Source: Bacillota bacterium (lineage in GTDB: Bacteria; Bacillota; Desulfotomaculia; Desulfotomaculales; UBA12532). From it: 64,000 nucleotides of DNA. A program made the translations under genes and the position numbers. Positions 4,028 through 64,000 of the stretch are shown here, in pieces; position 1 is the stretch's first letter; every line of letters begins with the position of its first letter. Under the pieces are notes generated by a model that had not been told where the DNA came from, did no database searches, and saw nothing but the letters and a program-made list of their open reading frames with translations. The stretch is taken from contig JBFMHQ010000004.1 in the NCBI GenBank assembly GCA_040751815.1, forward strand, positions 12,756 to 76,755, given 5' to 3'.

Positions 4028-4064
4028 TTAATTGGCCAGCTTCGGGCGTCCGCCCTCCCTGGGG

Positions 4065-5327: not shown

Positions 5328-5521
5328 TTTTCTCCTCCTGCGGCGGCAAACTATTTAAACAAAAATTGGCCGCCGGTGGCGGTAAATCCTGCCTTTCCGG
5401 AGGCGTAACATTTCCGGTGCCAACCCCGGCGCTGCGACAACTAAAACCACCGCTTTTCCACCGGCCCGCCTTGTGGTAGTCTTAGTAAAGAAGCGCCGGA
5501 CTCCGGCAGGGAGGGAAAAGC

Positions 5522-6712: not shown

Positions 6713-6715
6713 GGT

Positions 6716-49094: not shown

Positions 49095-49101
49095 AACATT
49101 T

Positions 49102-49626: not shown

Positions 49627-49691
49627 TTAAGAATAGGCCATTAACATATCCGTTACTCCTTGATCAGCAGCCATACATTAGGAAGTATTTA

Positions 49692-50076: not shown

Positions 50077-50404
50077 TTGCCGACCTGAAGATTCTGGGGC
50101 TGTTGGGCGGTGAGCCGGTGGCGAGCTGGGTTTTCCCCGCTGGCTCGGTTCCCGATAGTGAAGTGTTGGAACTACAGAGCAGTAGCTATGTAGAACACCA
50201 ATATCTACTATGCGTGAGTAATGGGCAAGTCGTTGCAGACATGGATACGTGACAAAACCCCTGACGGTCATGGCTCTCCGCACGTAGCGGCCGCACTCGC
50301 CCCTTTTCCCGATCCATTTTAGCCCCCTTCTTACCCGTCTTTCACGCCAGCTCGACCCCTTATTCGACGTCGAAGGCCAAAATCATGCCTGGCAAGGAAA
50401 ATTT

Positions 50405-50602
50405 TTGAAAATCTCACACAGGCTGTTAGTTGACAACCTAAAAAGTCACCTGGAGCAAGCCGAGTACGAGGCTTGGAACGCGCTGGCCCGTTACAAGTTT
50501 TTGATGTTTGCTTACTGGGCTTCTATATGGGTGCATTTAAACCGCTTGGGGGGCTTTAAAGGGCATACGGTGACCGGGCGCGGTTGCGTCTGGTTCTTAT
50601 AG
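50405..50602 (+). CDS. hypothetical small protein
   Basis: 65-aa ORF (ALARYKFLMFAYWASIWVHLNRLGG) followed by a terminator at 50649. Confidence 0.4.
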   Translation: MKISHRLLVDNLKSHLEQAEYEAWNALARYKFLMFAYWASIWVHLNRLGGFKGHTVTGRGCVWFL

Positions 50603-50648
50603 AGACTCCGCTGTTGACAATGGTGTTATGTACCTAGTTCATCGTTCA

Positions 50649-50676
50649 ACCCGCCTGTTGGCGGGTCTTATTTTTT
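50649..50676 (+). terminator. rho-independent terminator
   Basis: ACCCGCC-tgtt-GGCGGGT followed by CTTATTTTTT. Confidence 0.65.
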
Positions 50677-50914
50677 GGGGGCGGTCAGTGTGAACGGGCA
50701 GGGCGACATCGGAGTTACGTGGAGCGAGATGAGCGATCGCCTTCAAGTTATCAGGCGGGCGCTGTACTGGCTTGAGGCGGCCGTCGAGGCCAGAAGCGTG
50801 CACGATCTCGTAATACAACTTTCCACAATCGAGGACGAACTGCGATGGCTGCGAATGGGTACGGATTCACTCGAAACGCCGGGTGAGGTGGTGCGGAATG
50901 CCGCTGCGCTTTAA
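50675..50914 (+). CDS. hypothetical protein (start probably GTG 50690)
   Basis: ORF track only. No recognisable motif. Confidence 0.3.
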   Translation: MGAVSVNGQGDIGVTWSEMSDRLQVIRRALYWLEAAVEARSVHDLVIQLSTIEDELRWLRMGTDSLETPGEVVRNAAAL

Positions 50915-51068
50915 GTCGTTCGCGGATGTCGGCGTCTACCTTGGGGTAATCCCGCGCGTGGCCGTCATGCGGCACGCCCTGGAAAGTTACCGTGAAAAAG
51001 TACTTAAATGGGTCGGGTACCCGTTGACGGAAGAGGAAGCGGAGGACCATCTGCGGGAAGTCGTGTAG
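50898..51068 (+). CDS. hypothetical small protein, possibly HTH/excisionase-like
   Basis: MPLRFKSFADVGVYLGVIPRVAVMRHAL resembles an AlpA/MerR-type HTH. Weak. Confidence 0.3.
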   Translation: MPLRFKSFADVGVYLGVIPRVAVMRHALESYREKVLKWVGYPLTEEEAEDHLREVV

Positions 51069-51280
51069 CGCGGGCAGCCCGGGCGGCGGCTTCCCGGCGG
51101 GGCGCGCGAATACGTGCTGGACGGCCTGGCGGTGGCCGCGCGCGAGGACGCCGGCGGGATCATCGTGGTTTTGACCTGCCAGGGGGACCGCGAGTGGGTC
51201 AAGTGGCGGTGGCGGCAGGAGGTGCGGCGACGGTGGTCGCGCAAGGCTTTAGCGGCACTGTAGCCGGTTTCAGCAGGTGA

Positions 51281-51607
51281 GTACTTTGCGAGTATGCGAT
51301 TTTCGTCCCCGCGTCCTGGGGGAAAGAAGCGGTCAGGAACCTGCGGCGCGACCCCAGGTCAAGGGCGGTCCCCGTCGTAGTCGTGGGCGGCGGCCGGGAG
51401 TTCGTGCACGCCGGCGCGGACAGGTGCGTCGGGCGAATTACAGACGCGTTGGTGGATGAGGTTGCCGCCCTGGCGGACCGGCTGCGCTCTCTGTGGGAGA
51501 GGGCGGAGACGGACCCGCTCACCGGTTTGTACACCCGCGGCTTCTGGGACGTCTGGCTTCAGGAGCAAGTACGGTTGGGAAGGCGCCAGGAAAGGGGGGT
51601 TCCCAAG
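51281..51607 (+). pseudogene. response-regulator diguanylate cyclase (REC-GGDEF) remnant
   Basis: Frame open from 51281: ...KEAVRNLRRDPRSRAVPVVVVGGGREFVHAGADRCVG (end of a REC domain), a linker, then ETDPLTGLYTRGFW (start of a GGDEF domain). It then breaks off. No REC N-terminus and no GGDEF active site. Confidence 0.5.
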
Positions 51608-51772
51608 TTGAGCAAGCTCGTGCGGATACTCCGCGAGAAGCGCGGGCCCACCTTGGTCGAGTGGGCCGCCCTGGGGGTGCTCATCATCCTGGCGGTCTGG
51701 GCGGCGACCCAGGCGCTGGGCGTGAGCATCGGCGGCGTATTCCAGGACATCACAGGAAGGTTGGGACATTGA
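51608..51772 (+). CDS. Flp/Fap-family type IVb pilin (orphan)
   Basis: TTG 51608 (or GTG 51620) follows GGGGGG. MSKLVRILREKRG/PTLVEWAALGVLIILAVWAATQALG matches the Flp G/xxxxE(Y/W) cleavage motif plus hydrophobic helix. Confidence 0.6.
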   Translation: MSKLVRILREKRGPTLVEWAALGVLIILAVWAATQALGVSIGGVFQDITGRLGH

Positions 51773-51779
51773 CTGTGGC

Positions 51780-51808
51780 GCCGGGGGGGAGCCCCGGCAT
51801 TTTTATTT
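51780..51808 (+). terminator. rho-independent terminator after the Flp gene
   Basis: GCCGGGG-gggag-CCCCGGC followed by ATTTTTATTT. Confidence 0.65.
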
Positions 51809-51912
51809 GAGATGCAAAAACCGTATGTTAATTAGCGAACGACAATACTTCCATTCCACTCCCGACCGGCGCCCCGAAGAATGCCGAATGCTTTCGTGGA
51901 AATTTTCGACGA

Positions 51913-53709
51913 TCACAACGGCCCGATTCCGGGGCCCACGGCATTCGAAGGCGGAGAAACACCGTAGGCGTTGTAGGCTCTGACACGATAAACGTGCAGG
52001 TACCAGGCGTACGGGGGAGAATCTTCGTACGCGGTAACGTTTGGGCCTACCCGTGCTATTTCGGTGAAGCTTGCAGAAACGTCTTGCCGTTCGATAATGA
52101 AACCATCTTCGTTGGTGGAGTTATCGTCCCAGGTTAGCCTGATTCTCCCTTCTGGCAATACTTCGGCCACGAGATTTGATGGGGCGTTGGGAATGCTGGG
52201 GGTGGTGGCCGTCGATACGTTGGAATAGTCCGAGGTAGCCGCGGCCTTATAGGCACGGACGCGGTAGGTGTAGGTGGTGCCCGGGTGCAGGCCGGTGTCC
52301 ACGTAACTCGTAACGTTGGCAGGGACACTTGCGATTTCAACGAAGTTCAGGGAACTCGCGGTGCGCCTTTCGATGCGGAACCCGTCTTCATGGAGCGAGT
52401 TATCCCGCCAGGTCAGCTTGACCTCGGTGGCCGCGATGGCCGTGGCAACCAAGTTCGAAGGTGGTTCGAGAACGATTGGCGTCGTAACCGTCGCTTCGTT
52501 CGAATAGCCTGAGGTCCCTGCGGCATTAAAGGCCAGAATGCGGTAGGTATAAGTGGTATTGCCCTCGACGGCACGGTCTGTGTAACTCGTGGCTTGCCCG
52601 ATCAGGGTGGCCACCCGCAGGAATGCCCCGGCCAGCCCTGCCCGGCGTTCAATAACAAATCCGTCCGCGCCGCTTCCGTTGGTTATCCAGGTGAGGTCCA
52701 CCTGGCCCGGCACTACGGCGGCAGCCGCCAGACCTGACGGATCTGGCGGAACATTCACCGGGAAGGTGGCCCGCACATCGATAATCGTCATCATGCCGCC
52801 CGGGTACTCATCGCTGTTGACGAGGTGCAGCAGTTCCCGGTCGTAAAGGTATTGCTCTCCCGCCGGAGGGGTATATACCAGGTCGCACGTCTGGCCCGGC
52901 CCTATGGTGACGGCGTTTTTGAGATAGCTGGCGTCCAACAGAGCGTTACGGCGGGGCCAGGCGTCCTCGGCGATTACACGCGCGGGTCCCCCGGCTATGG
53001 CCAGGGTATGGGGCAGGAAGCCGGCGTTGATCACACGCAGCAGGACTCTGGCGCCGGAAAGCACGTGGACACGGGCGGTAAGCGGTTGGGTGGACGTGTA
53101 GGGCGGCGCTATACAGTCTGGGAAGGGACGCCCGTTGATCAGCCAGTACCGGGGCGCGTAGCCGAGCGGATTGTAGGGGGTGCCGGCGGGAATGATGTCG
53201 TGCGCCGCGGGATCCAGTTCACTCAGGATTATCAAGGCCTCAACATCGTAACCACTGCCGGTGTCAGCACCGTACGCGGTGCGCAGGGATGGATCTGCGC
53301 CGTCATAGTCGGCCGGCCTCACAATCAGTGCGCCGTACAGACCCATCTGGACCTGCCGTTCGGGGCCGGTCCCCCCTTCGTAGCGGAAGGTTCCGGGGCG
53401 GGAGACAGGGAAGCTGTAGACCACACTCCTCCCGGGATCCGCAGGACGGTCCAGGGAGATTAGCCGGCCTTCGCCGTCGAGGACCGGATCCGGGGTAAGG
53501 TCCTGTCCCGGAAAGATGAGGCACACGGGTTCGTTTAATCTGTTGTGCAGCGTAATCTCTACCGTGTCCCCCACGCGGGCTTCAATGACCGGCCCGGGCA
53601 GTTGTGGTGCCGCGGTCGGATTTGTGGCGATGCCCCAAAACACTGTGGGAACACCGCCGGGCAAGGAGGCGATACCGGGGCGTACCCAGAACTGTTTTCG
53701 TACCAGCAT
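51913..53709 (-). CDS. two-cupredoxin-domain multicopper-oxidase-like protein lacking all copper ligands, fused to three fibronectin type III domains
   Basis: Paralogous to the next two genes (QLPGPVI, RQVQMGLYGALIVRPA, RYWLINGR, PGGMMT). The ligand positions read EGG, PHTLAIAG and LLHLVN. The C-terminal approx. 290 aa contain 3 repeats of the L.W......DGF.IER........Y.D..L...T.Y.YRV.A.N form. Confidence 0.8.
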   Translation of the reverse strand: MLVRKQFWVRPGIASLPGGVPTVFWGIATNPTAAPQLPGPVIEARVGDTVEITLHNRLNEPVCLIFPGQDLTPDPVLDGEGRLISLDRPADPGRSVVYSFPVSRPGTFRYEGGTGPERQVQMGLYGALIVRPADYDGADPSLRTAYGADTGSGYDVEALIILSELDPAAHDIIPAGTPYNPLGYAPRYWLINGRPFPDCIAPPYTSTQPLTARVHVLSGARVLLRVINAGFLPHTLAIAGGPARVIAEDAWPRRNALLDASYLKNAVTIGPGQTCDLVYTPPAGEQYLYDRELLHLVNSDEYPGGMMTIIDVRATFPVNVPPDPSGLAAAAVVPGQVDLTWITNGSGADGFVIERRAGLAGAFLRVATLIGQATSYTDRAVEGNTTYTYRILAFNAAGTSGYSNEATVTTPIVLEPPSNLVATAIAATEVKLTWRDNSLHEDGFRIERRTASSLNFVEIASVPANVTSYVDTGLHPGTTYTYRVRAYKAAATSDYSNVSTATTPSIPNAPSNLVAEVLPEGRIRLTWDDNSTNEDGFIIERQDVSASFTEIARVGPNVTAYEDSPPYAWYLHVYRVRAYNAYGVSPPSNAVGPGIGPL

Positions 53710-53713
53710 GGTC

Positions 53714-54949
53714 TCATCTCCTCTCCCCGGAGGGAGTCTTTTGCGAACGGAGCAAGCCCGTGTGGGGGCCGAGGCTTCCGGTAGGAAAAATGCCGATCAT
53801 GGTCATCATGCCGCCGGGAAACTTACCCCAGTTGGTGATCTGCGGTTCTTGGTGGGAGTGGAGCATAAAGTAGTACTCGCCCATTGTGTTGAAGGATGTT
53901 ACGCCTACAGGTATATCGCTCTTTATCCCCAGGTAGGGGCTGCCGCTCCACATCGTCCACCCTGCGCCCCCGATGGTCTGGTTGCGAGGGTTGGGAAGTA
54001 ACGTCGGGATGGGGTTCGTTACCGGATCGTAGCCCAAACCGTGCCATTCGAAGATCTGATCGTAAGTCTGGCCGCAGCCGACCAGCACCGTGAAGTGCTT
54101 GTGAGATAAGTCCTGCGTGCCGTTCCTCAGCAGCCGGCCGTCCGTTGCGACGACCCGGGTATGGTTGCCGTGAGGGTGCAGGGGGTGGTTGTCGACGCCC
54201 GCGCCGGCGTAGCGCAGGAGCACCTTTTCGCCCGGCTCCGCCATGATCATTGACCCGTATGGCTGCTGGGGAAGGTAGCCTGCCCCGTCGGGAAACATCG
54301 TATCGGGGGCACAGCGTCCGTTGATCGTCCAGTAGCGCGGCCTGTACGTGCCGGCCAGGAAGGGTTGCCCCAGTCGGACGGCCTCGTGCAGCAGCGGGTC
54401 GATCTCCCCGAGTACCAGAAGGTATTCGCGGTCGAATTCCGTTTCCGTTCCCGTCCCGTATGCCGTCCAGGTCGTCCGGTCCACGGGATCAAACCCGGCC
54501 GGGCGGACGATAATAACGCCATACAGGCCCATCTGCACCTGGCGGTGCATGGCCGTTCCGCTGTAATACAGGTAGGTTCCCGGGTTGAGTGCCGTGAAAC
54601 GGTAGGTCACCGTGCCGCCGGGAGGTGCGTAATCGGTGAGCGATATCAGGCGTCCGTTTGCGTACACGGGTTTAACGGGTGCGGTGCCGCTCTCGCTTGC
54701 GTTGAGCACCCCGCTCTGACCGGGGAACAAGATGGAGACGTTTTCGGGAAGCTCGTTGGTCAGCTTAACGGTAATCGTATCGCCCTGGTTAACCACGATC
54801 AATGGGCCCGGGAGTTGCGCCGGCCTCTCAGGCTGGTCCGTGTAACCCCATATGTAGATGCTTGCGCCGTCCGGGGTAATAATGTAACCCTCAGTGGCGC
54901 GCAGGTTGACGGTCACCGCCGTGCTTGCCTGGACAACCTCGGTTTGCAT
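53714..54949 (-). CDS. two-domain multicopper-oxidase-like protein retaining only the domain-2 trinuclear-site histidines
   Basis: Domain 1 motifs lost (VSILFPGQ; YLYYSGTAMH). Domain 2 keeps NHPLHPHGNH (54161-54190) and LHSHQ (53852-53860), with Ser in place of the T1 Cys. Confidence 0.8.
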   Translation of the reverse strand: MQTEVVQASTAVTVNLRATEGYIITPDGASIYIWGYTDQPERPAQLPGPLIVVNQGDTITVKLTNELPENVSILFPGQSGVLNASESGTAPVKPVYANGRLISLTDYAPPGGTVTYRFTALNPGTYLYYSGTAMHRQVQMGLYGVIIVRPAGFDPVDRTTWTAYGTGTETEFDREYLLVLGEIDPLLHEAVRLGQPFLAGTYRPRYWTINGRCAPDTMFPDGAGYLPQQPYGSMIMAEPGEKVLLRYAGAGVDNHPLHPHGNHTRVVATDGRLLRNGTQDLSHKHFTVLVGCGQTYDQIFEWHGLGYDPVTNPIPTLLPNPRNQTIGGAGWTMWSGSPYLGIKSDIPVGVTSFNTMGEYYFMLHSHQEPQITNWGKFPGGMMTMIGIFPTGSLGPHTGLLRSQKTPSGERR

Positions 54950-54967
54950 AGCATCTTCCTCCTCATC

Positions 54968-56002
54968 TTATAGCCCTGGCCCGGCCTGCGGCGGCAGGGT
55001 ACCGGCGCTTATCTCAACGTACGTCATCATCCCGCCCGGAGAAATTCCTGCATTGTTGTTTTTGTGATAACCCCTGTTGAACAACGGATAAACCCCGGGT
55101 TGCTGTGGTTCGATGATGGCGTCAACGGTCTGCCCGGCGCCGAAGTAAAGCACGTCGCGCCGGTGCGACAGGTCCTCACCGTTAAGGCCGCGCAGCAGCT
55201 GGGCATCGCGCGCGACGATTTTCATGGGCAGCCCGAGGATGGTGATGGCGTGCTGCTCATAGCCGAGGTTGACAAACCGTAAAAGCACCTTTTCCCCGGC
55301 GTTGGCCCGTATCAAGCACGGGTAGGGTTGCTGCGCCAAATCGCCTCGGGGTGTTATATCTGTGGTGTCCGGGTAAGCGCGGCCGTTGATCAACCAGTAA
55401 GCCGGGCGGTACTCGGTCCAGTCGTATTCCTGGGCGTTGAGGGTTTGCGTATGGGCCGAAGGGTCAAGTTCCGTGAGAACGAGAAAGTACTCCCGGTCAA
55501 AGGCCGTTCCCGTACCGGCCCCGTAGGCCGTCTTGAGCTGGGGATCTGCGGGATTATAGTCGGCGGGGCGGGCGATTAAGGGCCCGATCATGCCCATCTG
55601 AATATGTTCCACCGGCTCGAAGTGGCAATGGTACATGTAAGTGCCGGGATCCCTGGGTTCGTAGTAGTAAACGAAGTTGCGGCCTACGGGCACGGCAAAC
55701 GACGCCTCGGGCACCCCGTCCCAGAGCGGGATCTGGTTGCGAAAGCCGTGCCAGTGGATGGTATGTGAATCGTCAAGGTCCGGGCGCTGCGGCGTTCCCA
55801 GGTTGGTTAGAGTCAATTCCACCCTCCAACCAACCGCAACGTCCAGGAGCGGGGCTGGCAGCTGGGCCTTGCCCCGGTATCCGAATATCTCGTTTTCGGG
55901 GATTCCCGTTAGGTCGACAAAACCGAAAATGTAATGTGTCGAGCCGTCGGGCATCCTGATAAAGCCGTCGGTTGCCCCGTAACGCAGCTGAACGAGTGGC
56001 AC
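54968..56002 (-). CDS. two-domain multicopper-oxidase-like protein retaining only domain-1 copper ligands (HWHG, HCH....H..M)
   Basis: HTIHWHGF (55745-55756) and YMYHCHFEPVEHIQMGM (HCH at 55622-55630). Domain 2 has no HxH motifs (YEQHAITILG; GYHKNNNAG). Confidence 0.8.
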   Translation of the reverse strand: MPLVQLRYGATDGFIRMPDGSTHYIFGFVDLTGIPENEIFGYRGKAQLPAPLLDVAVGWRVELTLTNLGTPQRPDLDDSHTIHWHGFRNQIPLWDGVPEASFAVPVGRNFVYYYEPRDPGTYMYHCHFEPVEHIQMGMIGPLIARPADYNPADPQLKTAYGAGTGTAFDREYFLVLTELDPSAHTQTLNAQEYDWTEYRPAYWLINGRAYPDTTDITPRGDLAQQPYPCLIRANAGEKVLLRFVNLGYEQHAITILGLPMKIVARDAQLLRGLNGEDLSHRRDVLYFGAGQTVDAIIEPQQPGVYPLFNRGYHKNNNAGISPGGMMTYVEISAGTLPPQAGPGL

Positions 56003-56047
56003 CAGAATACCCCCTTCCCTATTGACATAGAGGGTCTTTCCTGCCCC

Positions 56048-59000
56048 CTAACGGGCTTCGCAGGCGCCGATATCCACCGTTGGCCCCTGCGGCCTCGGCT
56101 TACCGTCGTGGTCGGTATCGGGCGCGTTGAAGGTCTCGCTGCCAACGGTTAGAGTAGAGGCGCCCCGGTCGATGACCGGCGAGTCAGGGTTGAGGTGGTA
56201 GTCGCCCTGGACTTCGGGGACGGCGGTGACGATCTTCACGGTCTTGAAATCCGGTTCCATGTTAAAGGCCACCGCGGTAACGGCGGTATCGTACGCGGCG
56301 ACAAAGGACGGGTCGCCGATAACGTTGGTAGGGTCGGGAGCGCCGTAAGGTTTGGAGAGGCTGCAGTATACCGGGCTGAACACCTCCGGTGTCGGGGTGC
56401 CGAAGACCTCGAGGTCAACGACGTTTATCGGTGTGGCGTCCCCTGTGGCACCGATACCGACAATGCCGCCGCGCCCTTCATTGGCGGTCTGGTCGTACCA
56501 ACCGGCGCGGTTATCCCAGAAGATGTTGTTAAAGAGGACGGGGTTGCTGAAGGGCGGGGAGCCCGGTGGCAAAATGGTCCTGAAAGCGGCGCTGTGCGCC
56601 TCGCTGACCAGGCCGGCCCCGTGCGGCCGGCCGTCGCTGTCTTCGGCCGTAGCCGTGGTGATGTTCTTGGCGATGGTGTTGTTGTAAATAACCACGTTGG
56701 ATGCGTCGTCCAGGGCAATGCCGCCCCCGAGGTCGGTCGAAACGTTGTTGGTGATGATATTGTTGTAAATGTTGATGCGGAAAGTACCCGGTTGCAGCAG
56801 GCGGATGCCGCCCCCGTCGTCGTTGGCCAGGTTGCCTTGGATGAGGTTGTTGTAGATGTCTACCGCCCCGGAACCGGGAGTGAAGGCATCAGGGGCCGCC
56901 GGCTGTTCGCCCCCGACGAAGATCCCTCCTCCTTCGTCAAAGGAGGCGTTGAAAAGGAACCTGTTATGGTAGATGCGCCCGCCGTGGCTGAGGCCGTAGT
57001 GGGACAGACCGCCACCGTATTCGGCGGAGTAGTTGCCGCAGACCTCGTTATGGTCGAACTCGTAGCCGTGGGCTCCGGAGAAAATCCCCACGCCACCGGC
57101 CAGGCTTATGCCGCCGTTGTTAAGGATCCGGTTGTGGTGGATGCGTACCCCGTCGTTGGCGTTATCGCCGGCATAGGGTCTGCCGATAGTGATCGCTCCC
57201 CCGAACCCGCCGCCGTTGCTTTGAATGGTATTGTTGCTAATTTCCAGGTACCGGCAATAGGCATTGACAAAAATCCCGCCGCCTTCTTCGCCTCTGGCGC
57301 CGGTGATGGTAAAGCCGTCGATTTGCGTCCGGAAGGCGGCGCCGAAATCCCCATCTCTGGCTACGACCGTGATCACCTGTCCGCGGGGTATTTCCTGGGA
57401 CCCGTCGAAGGTCAGCGAGGCGAGTTTGGTTTCCCAGGACCGTTGGTAGCTGGCGAAAAAGCGGCCGTCCAGTTTCGTTGCCTCGGGGCCCATTCCCTGC
57501 AGCTTTATGTTCTTGTAGACGATAGGGCTTTCGTAATAGACGCCGGGGTAGACGACAACCAGTGCTCCCGGGGGTGCAGCGTCGATGGCCGCCTGGATGG
57601 TTGTCGCGGGCGTTGCGTCGTAAATCGGGGGGCTATATCCGCCGCCCAGAACGTGTATCGTAATACCCTGCGTGCCGGAGATGCCGGCAGCGGTGGTCAC
57701 GACGAGTTGGGCCGGGCCGGCAGGAAAGTTTCTGGGGATGCGCACGGCAATGAGCGTATCGCTCCAGTACAACACGGGGATGGGCACGTTGTTGAGAAAA
57801 ACCGTTCCCCGGGTCCGGCCGAAGTTGCGCCCCCTGATATTTATCCTGCGGTTACCGGTTGGAGTGACGTAGACTCGGTTGACGCTCCCGACCTGTGGGA
57901 TCGCGGTGGTTTGGCAGACCGGCGGCCGGGAGAACTGTGCTCCCGGAATTCCCACGAAGGCCGTTATGGGGAAGAGGGCTACGTCGGCATACGTGGTTTT
58001 GCCGGGCCACACGTCGAAAACCATTTTCAGCGTCTGGTAGTTGGGGTTATAGTTCGCGTTGGGCCTGTCGGGATCGCCCGGGTCGTTGCCGACGATCTGG
58101 TACATTCCCGGCGCCACACCGGAGGGGGTTGGTACGTTGGCCGTATAGGTCGAAGGGAGGAGTACTTCGAAAACACCGTTGGCATCCGAATGAACCGTTT
58201 TGATCAGTTTTCCGGTATAATCCCGGATGCCGACCGGCGTGTGCGGGATGCCGCGCTTTTCGCCGTAATAGATAAAGGCAGGATCGGTCTCAAGGTTCAC
58301 GTCGTCCAGGAGGAACCCGACGATGCGGCCGGGCACCGGAACGTCTGTGTACAGGAAGAAGTCGGCCACCGCGTTTTGGCCGTATTTCACGGTTACGATT
58401 TTCGTGTCCCTGGTGTCGCCGTAATAGGGGGGCGGGGCCGTTTGGGCCACAAACTCATCACCCTCGTCTGTATTGACGCTTGTGGCGCTAAGAACCTTGT
58501 AGAGCGGTCTGGGCCGTCCCTCCACCGGATTGTACGGATCGGCGGGTGGTACAACCTGCACCAGGTAGGTCCCGGGGAGAAGCGGTTTTTCAACTGCCCC
58601 CGGGGCGCCGTAATAGGGGTCGAACCAGGTGTTGAACGCGTAACCGCCGTCAAAGGCGCCTTCCTTAATTTGATTGGAGCTATGCGGAACTTCAAGGCAG
58701 TTCGGGTCGGGGGTGCCGTCGGGCCTTACGCACCCGGCAGGATGCTGCCAGGCGTCGGTTTGTACGCTATTAATGAGGGTCTTTGTGCCGTCCTCGTTCA
58801 AGCGGTACAGGTTGACGGTGACGTTCGGGATGCCGGGTTCGTACTCTTCGGCTACGGCGTAGCGGGGGTCGAGCTCGTTGCGCATCGTCGCGTAGTAGAC
58901 AACCCCCGAGATACCCCCGTGGATCACATCGTCTGCCGTTCCAACCGTTCCGTCCGGCCCCGGCAGGGGGTATTCCCACATTCCCCAGTCGATACGGTTC

Positions 59001-60493
59001 GTCTTTGCCGCCCACGTAAGCACGGCCAGAGTAAGCACCCCGGGATGGGTGCTGGTGGGGCGCGGGGGGGCAATGCCGGCATCAGGGGTGGCGGTGGCAG
59101 CGGTAGGTCCGAAGCGCGTAAAGTCAAGCTCCGCCACGGCGAACCTTTCCAGTTCGAAAACCTCGTTCAGTGAGTACCAGCCCTCCGCGTCGGTTACGGT
59201 GCTGTATTGGACGCTGCCGTCCTTGAAGCGCGTGCCCACCGCGACGTTTGGGATGCCTTCTTCGACGTAATTTCCGTCGGCGTCTTTATCGCGTATGCCG
59301 TTGCCGTTCTCGTCGCGGAAGACCGTCCCGCTTATCCAGCCGAACCATCGCGGTATGCCGATATCGCCCATATCGACCGTTTCGCCTTCGCCGACCTGGA
59401 CCGTGCGGAAAGAAATGATGTGGTCGAGGGGCTCATCCCAAATAGCCATCTGGTACAGCCCCGCCGGCACGTGTTCTATTGTGAACGTGCCGTCCGGGTT
59501 GCCCCGGCCGGTGTAAACCTGCTCGTCGTTGCCGCCGATATCGGTCAGGGCAATCCAGGGGCGGTCGACCGGCCCACCGAGGATGAGGGGCCTGACCGGG
59601 GGTGTAAACTCGATGATGGTACGCACGCGGCCGATAATTGTGCCCGTCCCCGCTCCGGGAGCGAAGGCCATCGGCCTTACGAAGCCGATCCAGACGAGGG
59701 GCATCCGGAAACCTTCCCGTGGGCTGTATCCGTCGTTGCCCTCCTCCACCCAGGCATCGATCACGTGCGTGCCCTCAATGGTAGTCGTCTGGATCCAGTC
59801 CGTGCCGTCCGGGGGGATTGCCTGGACTTCGTATTTTCCCGGGGGAAGGTTTTCAATAACCGCGTCGCCGTTGGCGTCGGTCAGGATTACCCCGCCGGTA
59901 TTAGGAACGGGAATCGGCTTCCCTTCAGGGTCGAGGATAAGGTTTCCGCCGTCATCGCGTTGGTAAACGGTGCCGAGGGGATTGCCGAAATAGTCCACCG
60001 TTACCTCGCCTACCACGTCGCCGATGACGATCCGAAAGCCCGGGAGGCCGTGTTCCAGGGGCACGTCGTCTTCGCCGTTTACCGGGTGGTTATCCTCGAA
60101 AACGTGAACGCGAATCCTGGAAAGGGGCAGGGGATGGGGCTGCAGCTCAACCGTCACTGTACTGTCGCTATTCAGGTCGATCCAGTTGCCCCCCAGTTTA
60201 TGTCCGGGCGCTCTCACGGTGACAAGATATTTGCCGGCGGGCAGTAGGACTGCGGGCCGCACGGAATCCCCCGTGGCTACGACCGGACTGTGGCTCGCTC
60301 CCGGTTTCAGGGACGGCCAGTTCTCACGGTTTGGAGCGAATGGATCTCCTACATTGTCCTCGTTGACAATGAATTTGAAATCGGTGATAGGCGTGCCTGT
60401 TCCTGCCTGCAATACCCTTACGACAAGCCGAAACAGGCGAGCCTGTAACTTGCCCGGCACGGCCGGTTTCCTGCCATTGTCCGCGTCCTTCAT
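56048..60493 (-). CDS. 1481-aa multidomain protein: SdrD-B/Cna-B-like beta-sandwich repeats, IPT/TIG domain, right-handed beta-helix (PbH1 repeats, choice-of-anchor-Q-like end)
   Basis: ISGTVFRDENGNGIRDKDADGNYVEEGIPNVAVGT...TDAEGWYSL (SdrD-B-like). VNRVYVTPTGNRRINIRGRNFG...LVVTTAAGIS (IPT). Repeated ..NN.I..N blocks (ISNNTIQSN, HHNRILNN, IYNNLIQGN, IYNNIITNN, IYNNTIAKN). C-terminus DTDHDGKPRPQGPTVDIGACEAR. ATG follows GGAGG. Confidence 0.85.
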   Translation of the reverse strand: MKDADNGRKPAVPGKLQARLFRLVVRVLQAGTGTPITDFKFIVNEDNVGDPFAPNRENWPSLKPGASHSPVVATGDSVRPAVLLPAGKYLVTVRAPGHKLGGNWIDLNSDSTVTVELQPHPLPLSRIRVHVFEDNHPVNGEDDVPLEHGLPGFRIVIGDVVGEVTVDYFGNPLGTVYQRDDGGNLILDPEGKPIPVPNTGGVILTDANGDAVIENLPPGKYEVQAIPPDGTDWIQTTTIEGTHVIDAWVEEGNDGYSPREGFRMPLVWIGFVRPMAFAPGAGTGTIIGRVRTIIEFTPPVRPLILGGPVDRPWIALTDIGGNDEQVYTGRGNPDGTFTIEHVPAGLYQMAIWDEPLDHIISFRTVQVGEGETVDMGDIGIPRWFGWISGTVFRDENGNGIRDKDADGNYVEEGIPNVAVGTRFKDGSVQYSTVTDAEGWYSLNEVFELERFAVAELDFTRFGPTAATATPDAGIAPPRPTSTHPGVLTLAVLTWAAKTNRIDWGMWEYPLPGPDGTVGTADDVIHGGISGVVYYATMRNELDPRYAVAEEYEPGIPNVTVNLYRLNEDGTKTLINSVQTDAWQHPAGCVRPDGTPDPNCLEVPHSSNQIKEGAFDGGYAFNTWFDPYYGAPGAVEKPLLPGTYLVQVVPPADPYNPVEGRPRPLYKVLSATSVNTDEGDEFVAQTAPPPYYGDTRDTKIVTVKYGQNAVADFFLYTDVPVPGRIVGFLLDDVNLETDPAFIYYGEKRGIPHTPVGIRDYTGKLIKTVHSDANGVFEVLLPSTYTANVPTPSGVAPGMYQIVGNDPGDPDRPNANYNPNYQTLKMVFDVWPGKTTYADVALFPITAFVGIPGAQFSRPPVCQTTAIPQVGSVNRVYVTPTGNRRINIRGRNFGRTRGTVFLNNVPIPVLYWSDTLIAVRIPRNFPAGPAQLVVTTAAGISGTQGITIHVLGGGYSPPIYDATPATTIQAAIDAAPPGALVVVYPGVYYESPIVYKNIKLQGMGPEATKLDGRFFASYQRSWETKLASLTFDGSQEIPRGQVITVVARDGDFGAAFRTQIDGFTITGARGEEGGGIFVNAYCRYLEISNNTIQSNGGGFGGAITIGRPYAGDNANDGVRIHHNRILNNGGISLAGGVGIFSGAHGYEFDHNEVCGNYSAEYGGGLSHYGLSHGGRIYHNRFLFNASFDEGGGIFVGGEQPAAPDAFTPGSGAVDIYNNLIQGNLANDDGGGIRLLQPGTFRINIYNNIITNNVSTDLGGGIALDDASNVVIYNNTIAKNITTATAEDSDGRPHGAGLVSEAHSAAFRTILPPGSPPFSNPVLFNNIFWDNRAGWYDQTANEGRGGIVGIGATGDATPINVVDLEVFGTPTPEVFSPVYCSLSKPYGAPDPTNVIGDPSFVAAYDTAVTAVAFNMEPDFKTVKIVTAVPEVQGDYHLNPDSPVIDRGASTLTVGSETFNAPDTDHDGKPRPQGPTVDIGACEAR

Positions 60494-60525
60494 TTTGTGC
60501 GACCTCCAGTGAGTTCTGTAATATA

Positions 60526-60552
60526 TAAGTTATGCATCTTGGCATATTTTGT
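60526..60552 (-). promoter_or_regulatory. candidate sigmaK-type (mother-cell) promoter upstream of the four-gene operon
   Basis: Minus strand reads AC-N16-CATAACTTA (AC at 60551-60552, CATAnnnTA at 60526-60534), about 32 nt upstream of the ATG. The motif is short, so this is tentative. Confidence 0.3.
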
Positions 60553-60993
60553 CACAAATGGGAGACTACGCTAAACGCTGGGGGTGTCATGTTTACGGCA
60601 GGAAGGAATAGAACTCTGGATTATATAAGGGTAAGTGCCGCAAGGATAGAATACCCCGAAGGAAATAGAGATTGTAGAAATTGGTGCCGCGATTGGCTTC
60701 CTGAAATGGAGTGTCTCTAAGAGAGAATTGAGAGCGACATATGGTTTATTCTGGGGCACGCGAAAGGATTTTTGGAATCGACTCAGCGATAGCCTTTATG
60801 TAACTGAACAGGCCCCGGGGGTTTACGGCTTCGACAGGGTCGCAAAGTTACCCTGTAGCTTCGTCTGGTGATGCAGGGGGGATCTTCAGGAATTGCCACT
60901 TTCGGGGATGGAGACATGCTGCTTGGGGGAGAAGTATTCCGTCTGATGCCGATTGGGTTTAGAACCCGGAGCAGGTATCTATCTCTTCCCGCT

Positions 60994-61356
60994 CTAATAC
61001 AGCACGTCGAACGCGACCAAGGTGGCGGGCGCCTCGCAGGCCAGTTTCTTCGGTTTCTCGGCTGCGCAGGCGAAGCGGCGCATCACCCTGGCGAAGTCGG
61101 GCTGGTCGCCGGTGAACACGGTCAACTCGCCGTCGATGATCACGTCCCGCGCGGGCAGGGTCAGGCCCTGGAACTCGGGGAACTGCCCGGTGCAGCGCGT
61201 GCCGTGCCTGGTGTAGATTTCGATTTTCCCCGACGCGAAATCGGCGTGCAGGAGCGCCCGTATCCCGTCAATTTTGGGTTCGAATAGGTGCTCCTCACTA
61301 TCGAAAGGTACCTTACACTGTACCGGGAGCATCGGCTTGATCGCGGTAAAGAGCAT
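60994..61356 (-). pseudogene. ATP-dependent DNA ligase (LigD-type) N-terminal fragment
   Basis: Motif I EPKIDGIRAL, motif III VIIDGELTVF, motif IIIa LVAFDVLY, then a stop. Motifs IV-VI are absent. Confidence 0.6.
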
Positions 61357-61539
61357 TGCAGCAACCTCCAATACAAAATCGTGGCGCGGGTTGTCCCGTC
61401 ATTGCAACGGCTTTTTGCTGGTGAGGGAACCACACTTTACCTGATAAATAGACTCCTTTAACTATTTCCCATCGGTTATGCGTGTTAATGCTCACATTAT
61501 CTGACCGGTATTTGCTCTAATTGGCTGGCCGAGAAAGAG

Positions 61540-61560
61540 AACCGGCCGCGTGGGCCGGTT
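61540..61560 (-). terminator. hairpin terminator after the transposition ATPase
   Basis: AACCGGCC-gcgtg-GGCCGGTT overlaps the stop codon. T-rich tract follows on the minus strand (TCTCTTTCTC). Confidence 0.5.
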
Positions 61561-62366
61561 CACGACTCGTCTTCGAACTCCCCGAGGGCGCGCCTGGCCG
61601 TGGCCTCGTCGATGATGGATTTTTCCTGCAGGAACCCGTCCAGCAGGCAGGCGGTGCAGATGTTGTTGATCTTGCGGGGTATGCCCTTCGAGAAGTGGTA
61701 GATCACAGCCACGGCCTCGTCGGAGAACAGCGCGTGCTTGGCACCCGCCACCCGGAGGTGATGCTCGATATAGGCTTTCGTCTCCTGGGCCGAGAGCCCG
61801 CTCAAGTGAAACCGTAGATTCACCCGCTGGGCGATGGCCTCGAAGGTCTGCAGCCGCAGCCGGTGCCGCAGCTCGGTCTGGCCCACCAGGATCAGGGCCA
61901 TGGGCGAGGCGGCGTCCATTTGAAAATTGGTCAAGAACCGGATTTCCTCCAGCATGGCAGGACTGAGCAGGTGCCCCTCGTCGATGATGATTACCGGCTG
62001 CTTGTCGTGGTTCTTGTAGGCGTCCCAGAGAGCCTCGACGAGCTGCCGCCGGGCGTCGGCCGCGTGAAAGGCGGGCTTGAGCCCCATCTGGATGCAGAGT
62101 TCCCGGTAGAGATGCCGGGGTGTGAGGCCCGAGTGCGAGACGTACAGCACCCGGTAGTGCGCCGGGTCCAGCTGATGGGAGAGCGCCCGCACCGCGGTGG
62201 ACTTTCCGGCTCCCACCTCGCCGGTCAGAAGCCCGAAACCGCGCGTGCGCACCAGGTAGTTTAACCGCGCCAGGGTCTCCTTGACCTGCGCCGAAGGAAA
62301 CAGGTTCTCCGGCGCGATCTGGCGGCTGAAGGGCGTGGTGGTGAACCCGTAAAAGGCTTCAAACAC
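61560..62366 (-). CDS. AAA+ ATPase, ExeA/TniB-like transposition helper
   Basis: Walker A GEVGAGKST, Walker B VIIIDEGHLL. Typical partner of Mu/Tn552-type DDE transposases. Confidence 0.8.
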   Translation of the reverse strand: MFEAFYGFTTTPFSRQIAPENLFPSAQVKETLARLNYLVRTRGFGLLTGEVGAGKSTAVRALSHQLDPAHYRVLYVSHSGLTPRHLYRELCIQMGLKPAFHAADARRQLVEALWDAYKNHDKQPVIIIDEGHLLSPAMLEEIRFLTNFQMDAASPMALILVGQTELRHRLRLQTFEAIAQRVNLRFHLSGLSAQETKAYIEHHLRVAGAKHALFSDEAVAVIYHFSKGIPRKINNICTACLLDGFLQEKSIIDEATARRALGEFEDES

Positions 62367-63750
62367 TGGTTTCCTCCTCCCCTCCGGGCACGTGGAAGGT
62401 AATCCGCCCCAACTCCTCCTTCAGCGCGGCGGTATGTTTCTTGCGCAGCAGCTCCAGATAGCTCAGCCTGGGCAGCGGTTCGCTGGTGGCGTGATCTGGC
62501 GGCACCTCCACCCGCTCGTCGGTTTTGCGGCGCAGCTCCAGGGGCCGGGCCTCGCCCACGGCCTGCCCGTCGTAAAAGACCTGCAGGCGGCTTAAGTCAA
62601 AGGGGTCGTAGCGGATCTCGATGGTCACCCCGGCCAGGTGCGCCGGCGCCTCGTAGCGGTTGCCCTGGAAGCTAAAGCAGGCGGTCTTGTCCGTCTTGCG
62701 CTTTTCCCGCCACAGAAAGGCCGCGGTGAGGGCCAGGGGGTCGGCCAGACGGATCTCCCCGGGCCCCTTGGCGAAGCGTGCGGCCGGACATGAACCGGTC
62801 TCGGCGTGCACGTGGTGGTGGTAGAACTGCTCCAGCCAGGCCCAGAAGAACTCGTTGAGCTCTTCCAGGGTTTTAGGCTTCAGGCGCACCACCTCTGGGA
62901 TAAAGGACCGCTGCACCGTGCCGAAGAAGCGCTCCACCTTGCCCTTGCCCTCGGGCGCGTAGGGCCGAGCCGAAAGGTGTCTGATGCCCAAGTGGGCGCA
63001 CACCAGGGCGAACTGCCGGGACTGAAACACCGCGCCGTTGTCGCAGTAGACCCTGGCCGGGATCCCGCGCTTCAGGATGGCCTGCTTGAAGCAGTGCAAG
63101 AGACTCACCAGGTCCTCGGCAAAGTAGAACTGGGCGTGGCAGACCAGCCGCGAGTAGTCGTCCAGGAAGGCCACGAGATAGGTGCGGCGCTTCTTGTGGG
63201 GGTCCTGGGGATCAGGCAACCAGGGCCCGTAGCACACGTCGGCCTGCCACAGCTGGTTGGGTCCTTCCTGCTCGAAGCGGCGAAAAGTTTTGGCCGGCTG
63301 GGCGAGCAGCCGCCGGGTCTTGCCCAGGAGCCGCAAGTGCCGGGCCAGGGTGGAGACCTTCAACCCTCCGGGTTCCACGGGCGTTTCGGGGTCCATGACC
63401 AGTATGTCCACGATCTGCCGCACGCGGCGCTGGGGCAGCTCCTCCTTCAGGGCCACGGCCTTGGCCAGCACCTCCGGGCTTATGGCCCGGGGTCGGGAGC
63501 GGTCGCGGCGCGGCTTGGGCTTTAAGGCCTCGAAGCCTCCCTCCCGGTAGGCCTTCTGCCAGCGGCGCAAGGTCCGGGCCGAGACCTGCCGGTAACCGCC
63601 GCCGGGTAAAGCGTGCGGGCGGCTTAAGATTTCCCGGCGCCGGCGGCTCTTCTCGGCCCGGTCGAGGCCGGGCTCCAAAAGCGGGCTGATGATGCCGTAG
63701 CGAAACAGGGCCTCCTCGGTGGCGCGGTCTTCCGAGCGCATAACCCTCAC
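62359..63750 (-). CDS. DDE-type (rve) transposase with Mu-transposase-like C-terminal domain
   Basis: N-terminal HTH region. DDE candidates in WQADVCYG, VYCDNGAVF, PEGKGKVERFF. C-terminal ACFSFQGNRYEAP...IEIRYDPFDL is typical of the Mu transposase C-terminal domain. Confidence 0.85.
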   Translation of the reverse strand: MRVMRSEDRATEEALFRYGIISPLLEPGLDRAEKSRRRREILSRPHALPGGGYRQVSARTLRRWQKAYREGGFEALKPKPRRDRSRPRAISPEVLAKAVALKEELPQRRVRQIVDILVMDPETPVEPGGLKVSTLARHLRLLGKTRRLLAQPAKTFRRFEQEGPNQLWQADVCYGPWLPDPQDPHKKRRTYLVAFLDDYSRLVCHAQFYFAEDLVSLLHCFKQAILKRGIPARVYCDNGAVFQSRQFALVCAHLGIRHLSARPYAPEGKGKVERFFGTVQRSFIPEVVRLKPKTLEELNEFFWAWLEQFYHHHVHAETGSCPAARFAKGPGEIRLADPLALTAAFLWREKRKTDKTACFSFQGNRYEAPAHLAGVTIEIRYDPFDLSRLQVFYDGQAVGEARPLELRRKTDERVEVPPDHATSEPLPRLSYLELLRKKHTAALKEELGRITFHVPGGEEETSV

Positions 63751-64000
63751 CCCCGCCTACCAGCCTACCGCACCGGGCCGGGGCCGGGGAGACAGAATCT
63801 ATGTGGGACGGGATAGGGCGGCGACCGCCATCAAAAAGGCGAGGGCGTGCTGAGGGTCTGGCGCGCCCCAGGAAAGGCCCCGGAGGGTGCCGGCCTCCCA
63901 CAGCTCCAGGGCCGCGGCACAGGCCGGCGCCAGATAGCGCCGCAGCACCTCCCGGGTGGGGGCGCGGGCCCGGGGCACGTGGGACTCCTTACCACCTGGA

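What the first reader, a model, noticed from the sequence alone, without database searches (positions are those of the whole stretch)
56048..60493. 1481-aa surface-protein-like giant without any export signal or wall anchor
The domain order is read from motifs. The first approx. 860 aa contain several SdrD-B/Cna-B/carboxypeptidase-regulatory-like beta-sandwiches. An IPT/TIG domain follows at approx. aa 865-950. An approx. 500-aa PbH1 beta-helix then ends in a choice-of-anchor-Q-like DxDxDG…DIGACE motif. All of these are typical of extracellular adhesins or polysaccharide-active enzymes. Yet the N-terminus (MKDADNGRKPAVPGKLQARLFRLVVRVLQ) has no Sec or Tat signal peptide. There is also no LPXTG, SLH or other anchor. 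The ORF track already gives the longest possible N-terminus. The three MCO-like proteins likewise lack Sec or Tat signals, although bacterial MCOs are usually Tat substrates. NosD-like beta-helix proteins assist copper-centre assembly, which hints at a possible maturation role.
Basis: partly seen in the sequence, partly recalled or inferred. Interest (0 to 1): 0.6.

Follow-up and report, generated by a model that had tools for sequence, protein, structure and literature searches.

The report
Signal-less giant partner of spore oxidase
This 1481-residue adhesin-like protein heads a four-gene copper-oxidase operon whose proteins are secreted in other phyla but have all lost their export signals in spore-forming Bacillota, so it is most likely built onto the spore surface from inside the mother cell.

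Summary
The ORF at 56048-60493 (-) is real. It has about six or seven SdrD-B/CnaB-like beta-sandwiches, a TIG domain, a right-handed beta-helix and a choice-of-anchor-Q cap. It has no Sec, Tat, lipoprotein or LPXTG signal and no membrane segment.

It is the first gene of an operon (giant plus three multicopper-oxidase-like genes) found intact in 68 of 69 informative loci from Bacillota, Chloroflexota and Actinomycetota.

- **Other phyla:** the giant carries a Sec signal, MCO-1 a Tat signal, and MCO-2 and MCO-3 Sec signals. The loci also carry a two-component system, CopC/CopD and an S8 protease.
- **Bacillota:** in all ~30 loci, all four proteins lack signals and these accessory genes are gone.
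- **Tree:** the signal-less proteins form one clade nested inside signal-bearing lineages, which fits a single loss.
- **Spore genes:** 28 of 29 signal-less genomes plus this one encode SpoIVA; 0 of 30 signal-bearing genomes do.
- **Promoter:** a sigmaK-type promoter (AC-N16-CATAACTTA) sits 41 nt upstream, and this -10 motif is enriched upstream of the Bacillota genes.

Best reading (about 0.55): a mother-cell-made, spore-surface scaffold for the oxidase, analogous to CotA or Mnx. Location is inferred, not shown. The NosD-like maturation idea is not supported. The scan had noted related operons in two other genomes.

The parts
60551..60552 (-). Candidate -35 element 'AC' of a sigmaK-type promoter
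   Evidence: Read directly from the sequence: gtgAC, then a 16-nt spacer, then CATAACTTA. The genome's own sigK gene has AC-N17-CATATCATT upstream.
60526..60534 (-). Candidate -10 element CATAACTTA (mother-cell sigmaK/sigmaE type), 41 nt upstream of the ATG
   Evidence: CATAnnnT[AG] occurs at -75..-25 in 12/30 Bacillota loci against 6/180 control upstream regions (p=8e-8). The strict form CATAnnnTA occurs in 6/30, against 0/30 on the opposite strand. In 8 further loci, 2 have the strict form in that window and 1 at -92.
60503..60507 (-). Ribosome-binding site GGAGG
   Evidence: it lies 9 nt before the ATG at 60491-60493.
56048..60493 (-). Giant protein gene, 1481 aa (P0001), first gene of the operon
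   Evidence: More than 500 homologues at 45-81% identity.
60437..60493 (-). Short variable N-terminal tail (residues 1-19). It is not a signal peptide and contains RKPAV.
   Evidence: pLDDT is below 50 for residues 1-15. KD15 maximum is 0.93. An [EKR]P[AV]x motif occurs in 11/81 homologue tails against 0.56 in shuffles.
57899..60436 (-). Array of about six or seven beta-sandwich domains (CarboxypepD_reg / SdrD_B / SpaA-CnaB-like), residues 20-865, with an invariant DxNxNG calcium-loop motif at 394-398
   Evidence: Pfam. Model pTM 0.83. Fold matches to the TIE protein 6fwv, SdrD and the pilins BcpA/SpaA. Invariant columns in A1.
57614..57898 (-). IPT/TIG domain (residues 866-960)
   Evidence: PF01833 29.1 bits. 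CGTase E-domain matches. Model.
56201..57613 (-). Right-handed parallel beta-helix (residues ~961-1431) with repeated (D/E)(D/E)GGG turns
   Evidence: PF13229. Model pLDDT 92. Weak fold matches to GH28, PL9 and PL6 beta-helices. Invariant columns in A2.
56054..56200 (-). Choice-of-anchor-Q C-terminal cap (residues 1432-1480, DTDHDG...DIGACE). The protein ends here with no sorting signal.
   Evidence: NF041518 36.2 bits against a cut-off of 25. C-terminus read.
54968..56002 (-). MCO-like protein 1 (344 aa), signal-less here and Tat-dependent in other phyla
   Evidence: Pfam Cu-oxidase_3/_2. N-termini compared across loci.
53714..54949 (-). MCO-like protein 2 (411 aa), signal-less here and carrying a Sec signal in other phyla
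51913..53709 (-). MCO-like protein 3 (598 aa) with C-terminal FN3 repeats, signal-less here and carrying a Sec signal in other phyla

Best explanation
The 1481-aa protein is the large structural subunit of a conserved four-protein module: the giant plus three multicopper-oxidase-like proteins. In Chloroflexota and Actinomycetota the module is exported by Sec and Tat and works outside the cell.

On the branch leading to the endospore-forming Bacillota, all four proteins lost their signal peptides in one step. The neighbouring genes were lost too: a two-component system, CopC/CopD, an S8 protease and the small membrane protein c2.

I infer the following for these bacteria. The operon is transcribed late in sporulation in the mother cell, from a sigmaK/sigmaE-type promoter. 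The proteins fold and take up copper in the mother-cell cytoplasm. They are then laid directly on the outside of the engulfed forespore (coat, crust or exosporium), so no secretion signal or wall anchor is needed.

Within the complex, the compact beta-sandwich array, the TIG domain and the beta-helix would act as a scaffold. It would hold the oxidase subunits and bind a surface polymer. This parallels CotA laccase and the MnxEFG manganese oxidase on Bacillus spores.

**Shown:** the domain architecture, the absence of signals, the operon conservation, the single nested signal-less clade, the spore genes in the hosts, and the promoter motif.

**Inferred:** the time and place of expression, the spore location and the scaffold role.
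For: 1. **Tight operon.** 68 of 69 loci with enough downstream sequence have three MCO-like genes directly after the giant.
2. **Export in other phyla.** Orthologous giants have classical Sec signals (KD15 2.0-3.2). MCO-1 has SRRxFLK Tat signals. MCO-2 and MCO-3 have Sec signals.
3. **Concerted loss.** In about 30 Bacillota loci, all four proteins start within about 1-30 residues of the conserved domain. For the giant, no 15-residue hydrophobicity window exceeds 1.7; the MCO partners show one isolated exception from an over-extended ORF start.
4. **Single nested clade.** The signal-less proteins form one clade (support 100). It sits ladder-wise inside signal-bearing lineages (P0078; then the P0081/P0084/L021 group; then P0105; then the main clade).
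5. **Spore genes.** SpoIVA scores above cut-off in 28 of 29 signal-less genomes and in the window's genome, and in 0 of 30 signal-bearing genomes. The window's genome also has Spo0A, sigmaK and sigmaE.
6. **Promoter.** AC-N16-CATAACTTA lies 41 nt upstream of the ATG. CATAnnnT[AG] is found in 12/30 Bacillota upstream regions against 6/180 controls (p=8e-8), 2/30 on the opposite strand, and 1/50 non-Bacillota regions. In 8 further loci, the strict motif is in that window in 2 and at -92 in 1. The -10/-35 consensus is from PMC3789822.
7. **Accessory genes.** Environmental regulation and copper-delivery genes flank the signal-bearing operons (response regulator 36/51, c2 37/51, CopCD 15/51). They are nearly absent from signal-less loci (3/30, 0/30, 0/30).
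8. **Selection.** Identity of 55-81% over about 1500 aa across several Bacillota classes shows the signal-less form is under purifying selection.
[quoted passage not shown] CotA as a signal-less outer-coat laccase is from my own knowledge.
Against: - No expression or localisation data exist.
- The SpoIVA correlation reflects one evolutionary event in one clade, so it counts as a single observation.
- Only about a quarter to 40% of Bacillota loci show a recognisable CATA-type -10. The broader pattern was partly defined after I had looked at the data.
- The strict sigmaK motif is not enriched genome-wide (24 found, 23.5 expected).
- The loss of conserved cysteine pairs does not track signal loss. 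The signal-bearing sister P0078 lacks most of them too.
- The scaffold role of the giant is pure inference.
Confidence: 0.55

Rival explanations
1. The complex still works outside vegetative cells. It leaves by a signal-independent route: an unrecognised dedicated secretion system, autolysis, or membrane-vesicle release.
For: The domains are of extracellular type. The calcium-loop motif of the SdrD-B domain is invariant in both clades. Orthologues are secreted.
Against: No transporter or any other gene is conserved next to the four genes in about 30 Bacillota loci. All four proteins, including a former Tat substrate, would need the same unknown route. The giant has no conserved C-terminal or N-terminal export tag shared across the whole clade.
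Confidence: 0.15
2. The module was re-purposed for a cytoplasmic role in vegetative cells, for example intracellular copper handling or oxidation of a cytoplasmic substrate.
For: Absence of signals alone predicts a cytoplasmic location. The first MCO partner was ancestrally a Tat substrate, so it folds in the cytoplasm.
Against: Arrays of Ig-like, CnaB and TIG domains with a beta-helix are very rarely cytoplasmic. Many hosts are strict anaerobes, for which an O2-dependent cytoplasmic oxidase makes little sense (my own knowledge). The mother-cell-type promoter motif is enriched. The restriction to SpoIVA-positive genomes is left unexplained.
Confidence: 0.15
3. The beta-helix of the giant is a NosD-like assembly factor that loads copper into the three oxidase subunits, wherever the complex sits.
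For: There are weak partial matches to NosD models over about 70 residues. In L. pilosa an ABC ATPase plus ABC-2 permease pair follows the operon.
Against: The scores are far below cut-off (33.7 against 300; 22.2 against 23.6). There is no NosD hit by profile in the PDB or in the top 50 fold matches. The ABC pair is not conserved in other loci. The matches cover only generic PbH1 repeats.
Confidence: 0.1
4. The signal-less genes are decaying relics of a once-secreted system.
For: In this window the operon lies in an ssrA-linked island. A transposon and, according to first-reader scan notes I did not check, broken genes lie nearby.
Against: Reading frames of about 1500 aa are intact, and all three partners are retained in about 30 genomes of several classes at 55-81% identity. 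Invariant motifs are kept.
Confidence: 0.03

Closest known systems
Secreted orthologous operon of Chloroflexota and Actinomycetota (uncharacterised; e.g. loci L048, L056, L096)
   Same: It has the same four genes in the same order and the same domain core (37-62% identity over residues ~33-1479).
   Different: - The orthologues carry Sec and Tat signals and four or five extra conserved Cys pairs.
- They often carry C-terminal extensions (DUF11-like repeats and others).
- Their neighbours are a two-component system, CopC/CopD, an S8 protease and the c2 membrane protein.
- All of these features are missing here.
Mnx complex (MnxG with MnxE3F3), the manganese oxidase of marine Bacillus spores
   Same: It is a multi-subunit multicopper-oxidase complex encoded by one operon, and the oxidation is carried out by spores rather than vegetative cells (PMC5622069).
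   Different: Mnx has one large MCO plus two ~12-kDa accessory proteins. It has no 160-kDa beta-sandwich/beta-helix subunit and no sequence relationship to the giant. The spore location of the present complex is only inferred.
CotA, the outer spore-coat laccase of Bacillus subtilis
   Same: It is a multicopper oxidase without a signal peptide, made in the mother cell under sigmaK and deposited on the spore (my own knowledge).
   Different: CotA is a single three-domain enzyme with no partner proteins. Here there are three two-domain-like MCO paralogues plus the giant.
SdrD / Cna-B MSCRAMM adhesins and Gram-positive pilins (SdrD, BcpA, SpaA, B. anthracis TIE protein)
   Same: The beta-sandwich domains share fold and motifs: PF17210 and PF13620 hits, and top fold matches to 6fwv, 10ps, 3kpt and 5f44.
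   Different: It has no signal peptide, no LPXTG, no ligand-binding A region and no sortase context. The array is predicted to be compact (pTM 0.83), and it is highly conserved rather than variable.
NosD, the periplasmic beta-helix of the N2O-reductase assembly machinery
   Same: Both are right-handed beta-helices with PbH1 repeats associated with a copper enzyme.
   Different: It scores far below the family cut-offs. There is no nosZ or nosFY context and no export signal, and NosD was not recovered by PDB profile or fold search.
Beta-helix polysaccharide hydrolases and lyases (GH28, PL9, PL6), the source of the database label 'pectin esterase'
   Same: They share the general right-handed beta-helix fold.
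   Different: TM-scores are only 0.22-0.36 at about 10-13% identity. No pectinesterase family was among the Pfam matches. Catalytic residues were not examined.

Membership tests
LPXTG-anchored MSCRAMM adhesins (SdrD type) | N-terminal Sec (YSIRK-type) signal peptide | tested here: not met
   KD15 maximum is 0.93 in the first 40 residues, and there is no hydrophobic core.
LPXTG-anchored MSCRAMM adhesins (SdrD type) | C-terminal LPXTG sorting signal with a membrane segment | tested here: not met
   There is no LPXTG-like motif. KD19 maximum is 1.32. The protein ends ...DIGACEAR.
LPXTG-anchored MSCRAMM adhesins (SdrD type) | SdrD B-repeat domain | tested here: met
   PF17210 scores 61.6 bits against 29.7. 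The full-length model NF012181 scores only 22.4 against 2500.
NosD (nitrous-oxide reductase maturation protein) | Score above the family cut-off (TIGR04247 / PF05048) | tested here: not met
   33.7 against 300 bits, and 22.2 against 23.6 bits. No NosD chain was found by profile search of the PDB.
NosD (nitrous-oxide reductase maturation protein) | Genetic linkage to nosZ and the NosF/NosY ABC transporter | tested here: not met
   No conserved ABC pair flanks the operon in about 80 loci, and the partners are MCO-like rather than NosZ.
Choice-of-anchor Q domain proteins (NF041518) | Domain score above cut-off at the C-terminus of a beta-helix | tested here: met
   36.2 bits against 25, at residues 1432-1480.
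Pectinesterase / pectate lyase (database label 'pectin esterase') | Match to a pectinesterase or pectate-lyase family model | tested here: not met
   Pfam lists only the generic Beta_helix PF13229. Fold matches have TM 0.22-0.36.
Giant + three MCO operon family (uncharacterised) | Giant gene immediately followed by three MCO-like genes on the same strand | tested here: met
   True in the window and in 68 of 69 informative loci.
Mother-cell-made spore-surface proteins (functional class; CotA, Mnx, BclA) | Host is an endospore former | tested here: met
   The window's genome has SpoIVA at 829 bits, Spo0A at 416, sigmaK at 352 and sigmaE at 415, all above cut-off. 28 of 29 other carriers have SpoIVA.
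Mother-cell-made spore-surface proteins (functional class; CotA, Mnx, BclA) | SigmaE/sigmaK-dependent transcription | tested here: inconclusive
   A consensus-like AC-N16-CATAACTTA is present, and the motif is enriched across loci. There is no transcript evidence, and many loci lack a clear motif.
Mother-cell-made spore-surface proteins (functional class; CotA, Mnx, BclA) | Physical presence in the coat or exosporium | not testable with these tools
   This needs spore proteomics or microscopy. The only spore proteome I found (Moorella thermoacetica, PMC8745062) does not mention a multicopper oxidase or laccase; whether that species carries the operon was not tested.

The most novel reading that the evidence does not exclude
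The four signal-less proteins, including a 160-kDa subunit and a former Tat substrate, are exported from vegetative Bacillota cells by a secretion route that needs no recognisable signal and is not encoded next to the operon. That would be an undescribed export pathway. The evidence does not exclude it. It is less likely than spore-surface assembly from the mother cell, which would itself be a new example of a whole secreted enzyme complex re-routed by the loss of its signals.
Probability: 0.1. Interest if true: 0.85.

Novelty: new variant of a known kind. Interest (0 to 1): 0.6.

Why it matters
- **A clean natural experiment in protein targeting.** If the spore reading is right, the same four-protein copper-oxidase machine is secreted by Sec and Tat in two phyla. 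In endospore formers it reaches a topologically equivalent surface simply by dropping all four signals and changing its promoter.
- **A new spore-surface oxidase.** It would add an uncharacterised type with a 160-kDa scaffold to CotA and Mnx. The carriers are largely anaerobic, environmentally important spore formers (Desulfotomaculia, Moorellia, Limnochordia). Their spore surfaces are almost unstudied and could matter for metal or organic oxidation and for spore persistence in oxic settings.
- **An annotation fix.** The widespread database label 'pectin esterase' for this family is not supported.

Tried and rejected
1. **NosDFY-like maturation.** The L. pilosa locus has an ABC ATPase plus ABC-2 permease after the operon, and the window has such a pair about 5 kb away. 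The pair is not conserved elsewhere, and the NosD scores are far below cut-off. Rejected.
2. **Cysteine loss as proof of cytoplasmic folding.** Secreted orthologues have four or five extra conserved Cys pairs that are absent in the signal-less clade. The signal-bearing sister P0078 also lacks most of them. The loss may only reflect cysteine avoidance in Bacillota exoproteins. Downgraded to weak evidence.
3. **Genome-wide sigmaK motif.** There are 24 hits against 23.5 expected, so no global enrichment. Several hits do precede ORFs that look, by eye only, like spore genes (CotJA-like, YqfC-like).
4. **Spore proteome of Moorella thermoacetica** (PMC8745062). It does not mention a multicopper oxidase or laccase; whether that species carries the operon was not tested. 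Uninformative.
5. **PDB sequence and profile searches.** Only TIG-domain matches were found.
6. **Literature searches for the family.** Nothing was found.
8. **Conserved N-terminal targeting tag.** An [EKR]P[AV]x motif exists in only 11 of 81 tails, so it is not clade-wide.
Full report
**1. Observation**

The ORF 56048-60493 on the minus strand encodes 1481 residues. A GGAGG lies 9 nt before the ATG, and the frame is open for only 12 more codons upstream. Homologues align from residue ~17 onward. The annotated start is therefore right, and the 1389-aa gene-caller product (P0002) is too short.

- SdrD_B (61.6 bits), CarboxypepD_reg (57.9 bits) and fn3_3.
- TIG at residues 866-940.
- Beta_helix, plus a sub-threshold NosD match near residues 1215-1286.
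- choice_anch_Q at residues 1432-1480 (36.2 bits against a cut-off of 25).

AlphaFold models built on 37-sequence alignments agree:
- Residues 1-865 form an all-beta array of about six or seven sandwiches. The pTM is unusually high for a multi-domain chain (0.83, pLDDT 83.6).
- Residues 856-1481 form a TIG domain followed by a long right-handed beta-helix (pLDDT 92.3, pTM 0.93).

Fold searches return Gram-positive adhesin and pilin domains for the first part: the B. anthracis TIE protein, SdrD, BcpA and SpaA. For the second part they return generic polysaccharide-active beta-helices (GH28, PL9, PL6; TM 0.22-0.36) plus CGTase E-domains.

There is no signal or anchor:
- The maximum 15-residue hydrophobicity in the first 40 residues is 0.93.
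- The maximum 19-residue window anywhere is 1.32.
- There is no Tat motif, lipobox or LPXTG.
- The three downstream MCO-like proteins are equally signal-less.

**2. The family and its operon**

The protein belongs to a large, strongly conserved family. More than 500 homologues score below E 1e-3, with 55-81% identity among Bacillota. A genome scan gave 79 loci. I called ORFs in them and clustered the products. In 68 of the 69 loci with at least 3.6 kb downstream, three MCO-like genes follow the giant on the same strand. The one exception, L023, is a truncated 1131-aa variant. So the giant is the first gene of a fixed four-gene module. The module occurs in Bacillota, Chloroflexota and Actinomycetota (Cryobacterium, Lacisediminihabitans, Frigoribacterium, Nocardioides). 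An earlier scan note (e1-3561203) treats the three oxidase paralogues. I did not re-examine their copper sites.

**3. The key result: export signals differ by clade**

In Chloroflexota and Actinomycetota:
- The giant has a classical Sec signal peptide (for example MTQSTPMNTIRTRGNAWRRSASLLMILIMLMGTFAPFTFASPARA; KD15 2.0-3.2).
- MCO-1 has a twin-arginine signal (SRRDFLKLAGG).
- MCO-2 and MCO-3 have Sec-type signals.

In every one of about 30 Bacillota loci, including the window, all four proteins begin within about 1-30 residues of the conserved domain, without a hydrophobic core.

Maximum-likelihood trees place all signal-less giants in one clade (support 99-100). That clade is nested ladder-wise within signal-bearing lineages. 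The sister is P0078, whose four proteins all carry Sec-type signals (locus L095). Next comes a clade containing P0081, P0084 and L021, then P0105, then the main Chloroflexota/Actinomycetota clade. Unless the root lies inside the signal-less clade, the signals are ancestral and were lost once.

The same branch lost the accessory genes that flank signal-bearing operons:

| Accessory gene | Signal-bearing loci | Signal-less loci |
|---|---|---|
| Histidine kinase | 33/51 | 3/30 |
| Response regulator | 36/51 | 3/30 |
| Small membrane protein c2 | 37/51 | 0/30 |
| CopC/CopD | 15/51 | 0/30 |

An S8 protease also accompanies many signal-bearing operons.

**4. Why the signals may be dispensable**

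Every signal-less carrier looks like an endospore former.
- The window's genome encodes SpoIVA (829 bits), Spo0A (416), sigmaK (352) and sigmaE (415), all above the curated cut-offs.
- SpoIVA is found above cut-off in 28 of the 29 other genomes with a signal-less operon. The one miss is a 7.6-kb contig binned as Desulfovibrio.
- SpoIVA is found in none of 30 genomes with the signal-bearing operon.

This correlation stems from a single evolutionary event. It is therefore consistent with the model rather than statistical proof of it.

Proteins made in the mother cell reach the forespore surface without crossing a membrane. This is why coat and exosporium proteins such as CotA lack signal peptides (my own knowledge). 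It is also how the multi-subunit Mnx multicopper oxidase comes to act on spores and not vegetative cells (PMC5622069).

**5. Promoter**

The minus strand reads gtgAC-N16-CATAACTTA, with the CATA box 41 nt upstream of the ATG. In B. subtilis and C. difficile, the mother-cell sigma factors share a CATA-type -10. The -35 is 'AC' for sigmaK and 'ATA' for sigmaE (PMC3789822).

In this genome, sigK itself is preceded by AC-N17-CATATCATT, and spoIVA by ATA-N16-CATATATA.

Across loci:
- CATAnnnT[AG] lies at -75..-25 in 12 of 30 Bacillota loci, against 6 of 180 control upstream regions from the same loci (Fisher p=8e-8).
- It occurs in 2 of 30 on the opposite strand. Shuffles give a mean of 1.2 and a maximum of 5.
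- It occurs in 1 of 50 non-Bacillota regions, even though those windows were 300 nt long.
- The a-priori strict form CATAnnnTA occurs in 6 of 30 (0 of 30 on the opposite strand).
It lies at -92 in one more.

Caveats:
- The broader pattern was partly chosen after I had seen the data.
- Related loci are not independent.
- Many loci lack a clear box.
- The full sigmaK motif is not enriched genome-wide (24 against 23.5 expected). Several of its 14 gene-proximal hits do precede ORFs that look by eye like spore genes.

**6. What did not hold up**

- Secreted orthologues carry four or five conserved Cys pairs that are absent from the signal-less clade. The signal-bearing sister P0078 lacks most of them too. 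So this is not specific evidence for cytoplasmic folding.
- The NosD idea fails on several counts. Scores are far below cut-off. There is no NosD hit by PDB profile or in the top 50 fold matches. There is no conserved NosFY-like transporter.
- No paper on the family was found.

**7. Context in this window**

The operon lies downstream of smpB (48654-49094) and the tmRNA gene (49102-49453). The stretch has lower G+C (0.57-0.61 against 0.62-0.67). A Mu-like transposase and AAA ATPase pair lies at 61560-63750.

The closest giants are from Neomoorella (79-81% identity). The nearest genome by taxonomy that carries the operon appears to be Desulfurispora (same order, 69% identity).

Only 16 of 400 sampled genomes of the phylum carry the gene. 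The module is therefore an accessory, probably horizontally mobile trait. This fits the well-known variability of outer spore layers (my own knowledge).

**8. Conclusion**

The finding is real, and it extends beyond the one protein. An extracellular-type scaffold protein and its three oxidase partners lost all export signals together in endospore-forming Bacillota.

The best explanation (about 0.55) is assembly on the spore surface from the mother cell, with the giant as scaffold or anchor. The rivals are:
- signal-independent export (0.15);
- a vegetative cytoplasmic role (0.15);
- a NosD-like maturation role (0.1);
- gene decay (0.03).

Localisation and timing remain untested.

Noticed in passing
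window 51383-51772 (+): An ORF ends in a Flp-type pilin-like sequence (…RGPTLVEWAALGVLIILAVWAATQALG…) just downstream of the operon on the opposite strand. A first-reader note (e1-3561201) reports the same.
   Followed up: no
window 48654-49453 (+) and 49454-64000: smpB is followed by a tmRNA gene (49102-49453, tag ANKTEVALAA). The operon lies in the lower-GC stretch after it, next to a Mu-like transposase plus AAA ATPase pair (61560-63750). This looks like an ssrA-linked island.
   Followed up: partly
L023:10001-13249: A Thermoanaerobacterales MAG carries a truncated 1131-aa relative of the giant (matching residues 36-1080, so without the beta-helix). No MCO-like genes follow it. It is the only exception to the four-gene rule.
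   Followed up: no
L095 (Logan SRR31155647 contig), genes 223-8052: This is the sister lineage to the signal-less clade, at 62% identity. All four proteins carry Sec-type signals, and MCO-1 has a Sec-like rather than a Tat signal. It already lacks most of the extra Cys pairs. The host taxon is unknown.
   Followed up: partly
L013, L016, L031 (and L004): MAGs labelled Ignavibacteriales, Actinomycetota and Betaproteobacteria carry the Bacillota-type signal-less operon and also encode SpoIVA above cut-off. Their taxonomic labels or binning are probably wrong. The 'Desulfovibrio' MAG contig L004 is probably misbinned.
   Followed up: partly
e.g. L056:22286-22804, L048:20753-21250, L096:18404-18898: An uncharacterised protein of about 170 aa with a single membrane segment (cluster c2, no Pfam match) follows MCO-3 in 37 of 51 signal-bearing loci and is absent from all signal-less loci. 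It may be an assembly or anchoring factor of the secreted form.
   Followed up: partly
window 60437-60493 (-) and homologue N-termini: A short motif [EKR]P[AV][AFVILS] (RKPAV here; KEPVF and EEPAF elsewhere) recurs in the otherwise variable N-terminal tails of 11 of 81 Bacillota-type homologues (0.56 expected from shuffles). Its function is unknown. It could be a targeting or processing tag in a subclade.
   Followed up: partly
residues ~1150-1270 of P0001 (window ~56680-57040): Successive beta-helix turns carry nearly invariant acidic-glycine motifs (AEYGGG, DEGGG, NDDGGG, TDLGGG) forming a ladder on one face. This may be a cation- or polymer-binding surface.
   Followed up: no
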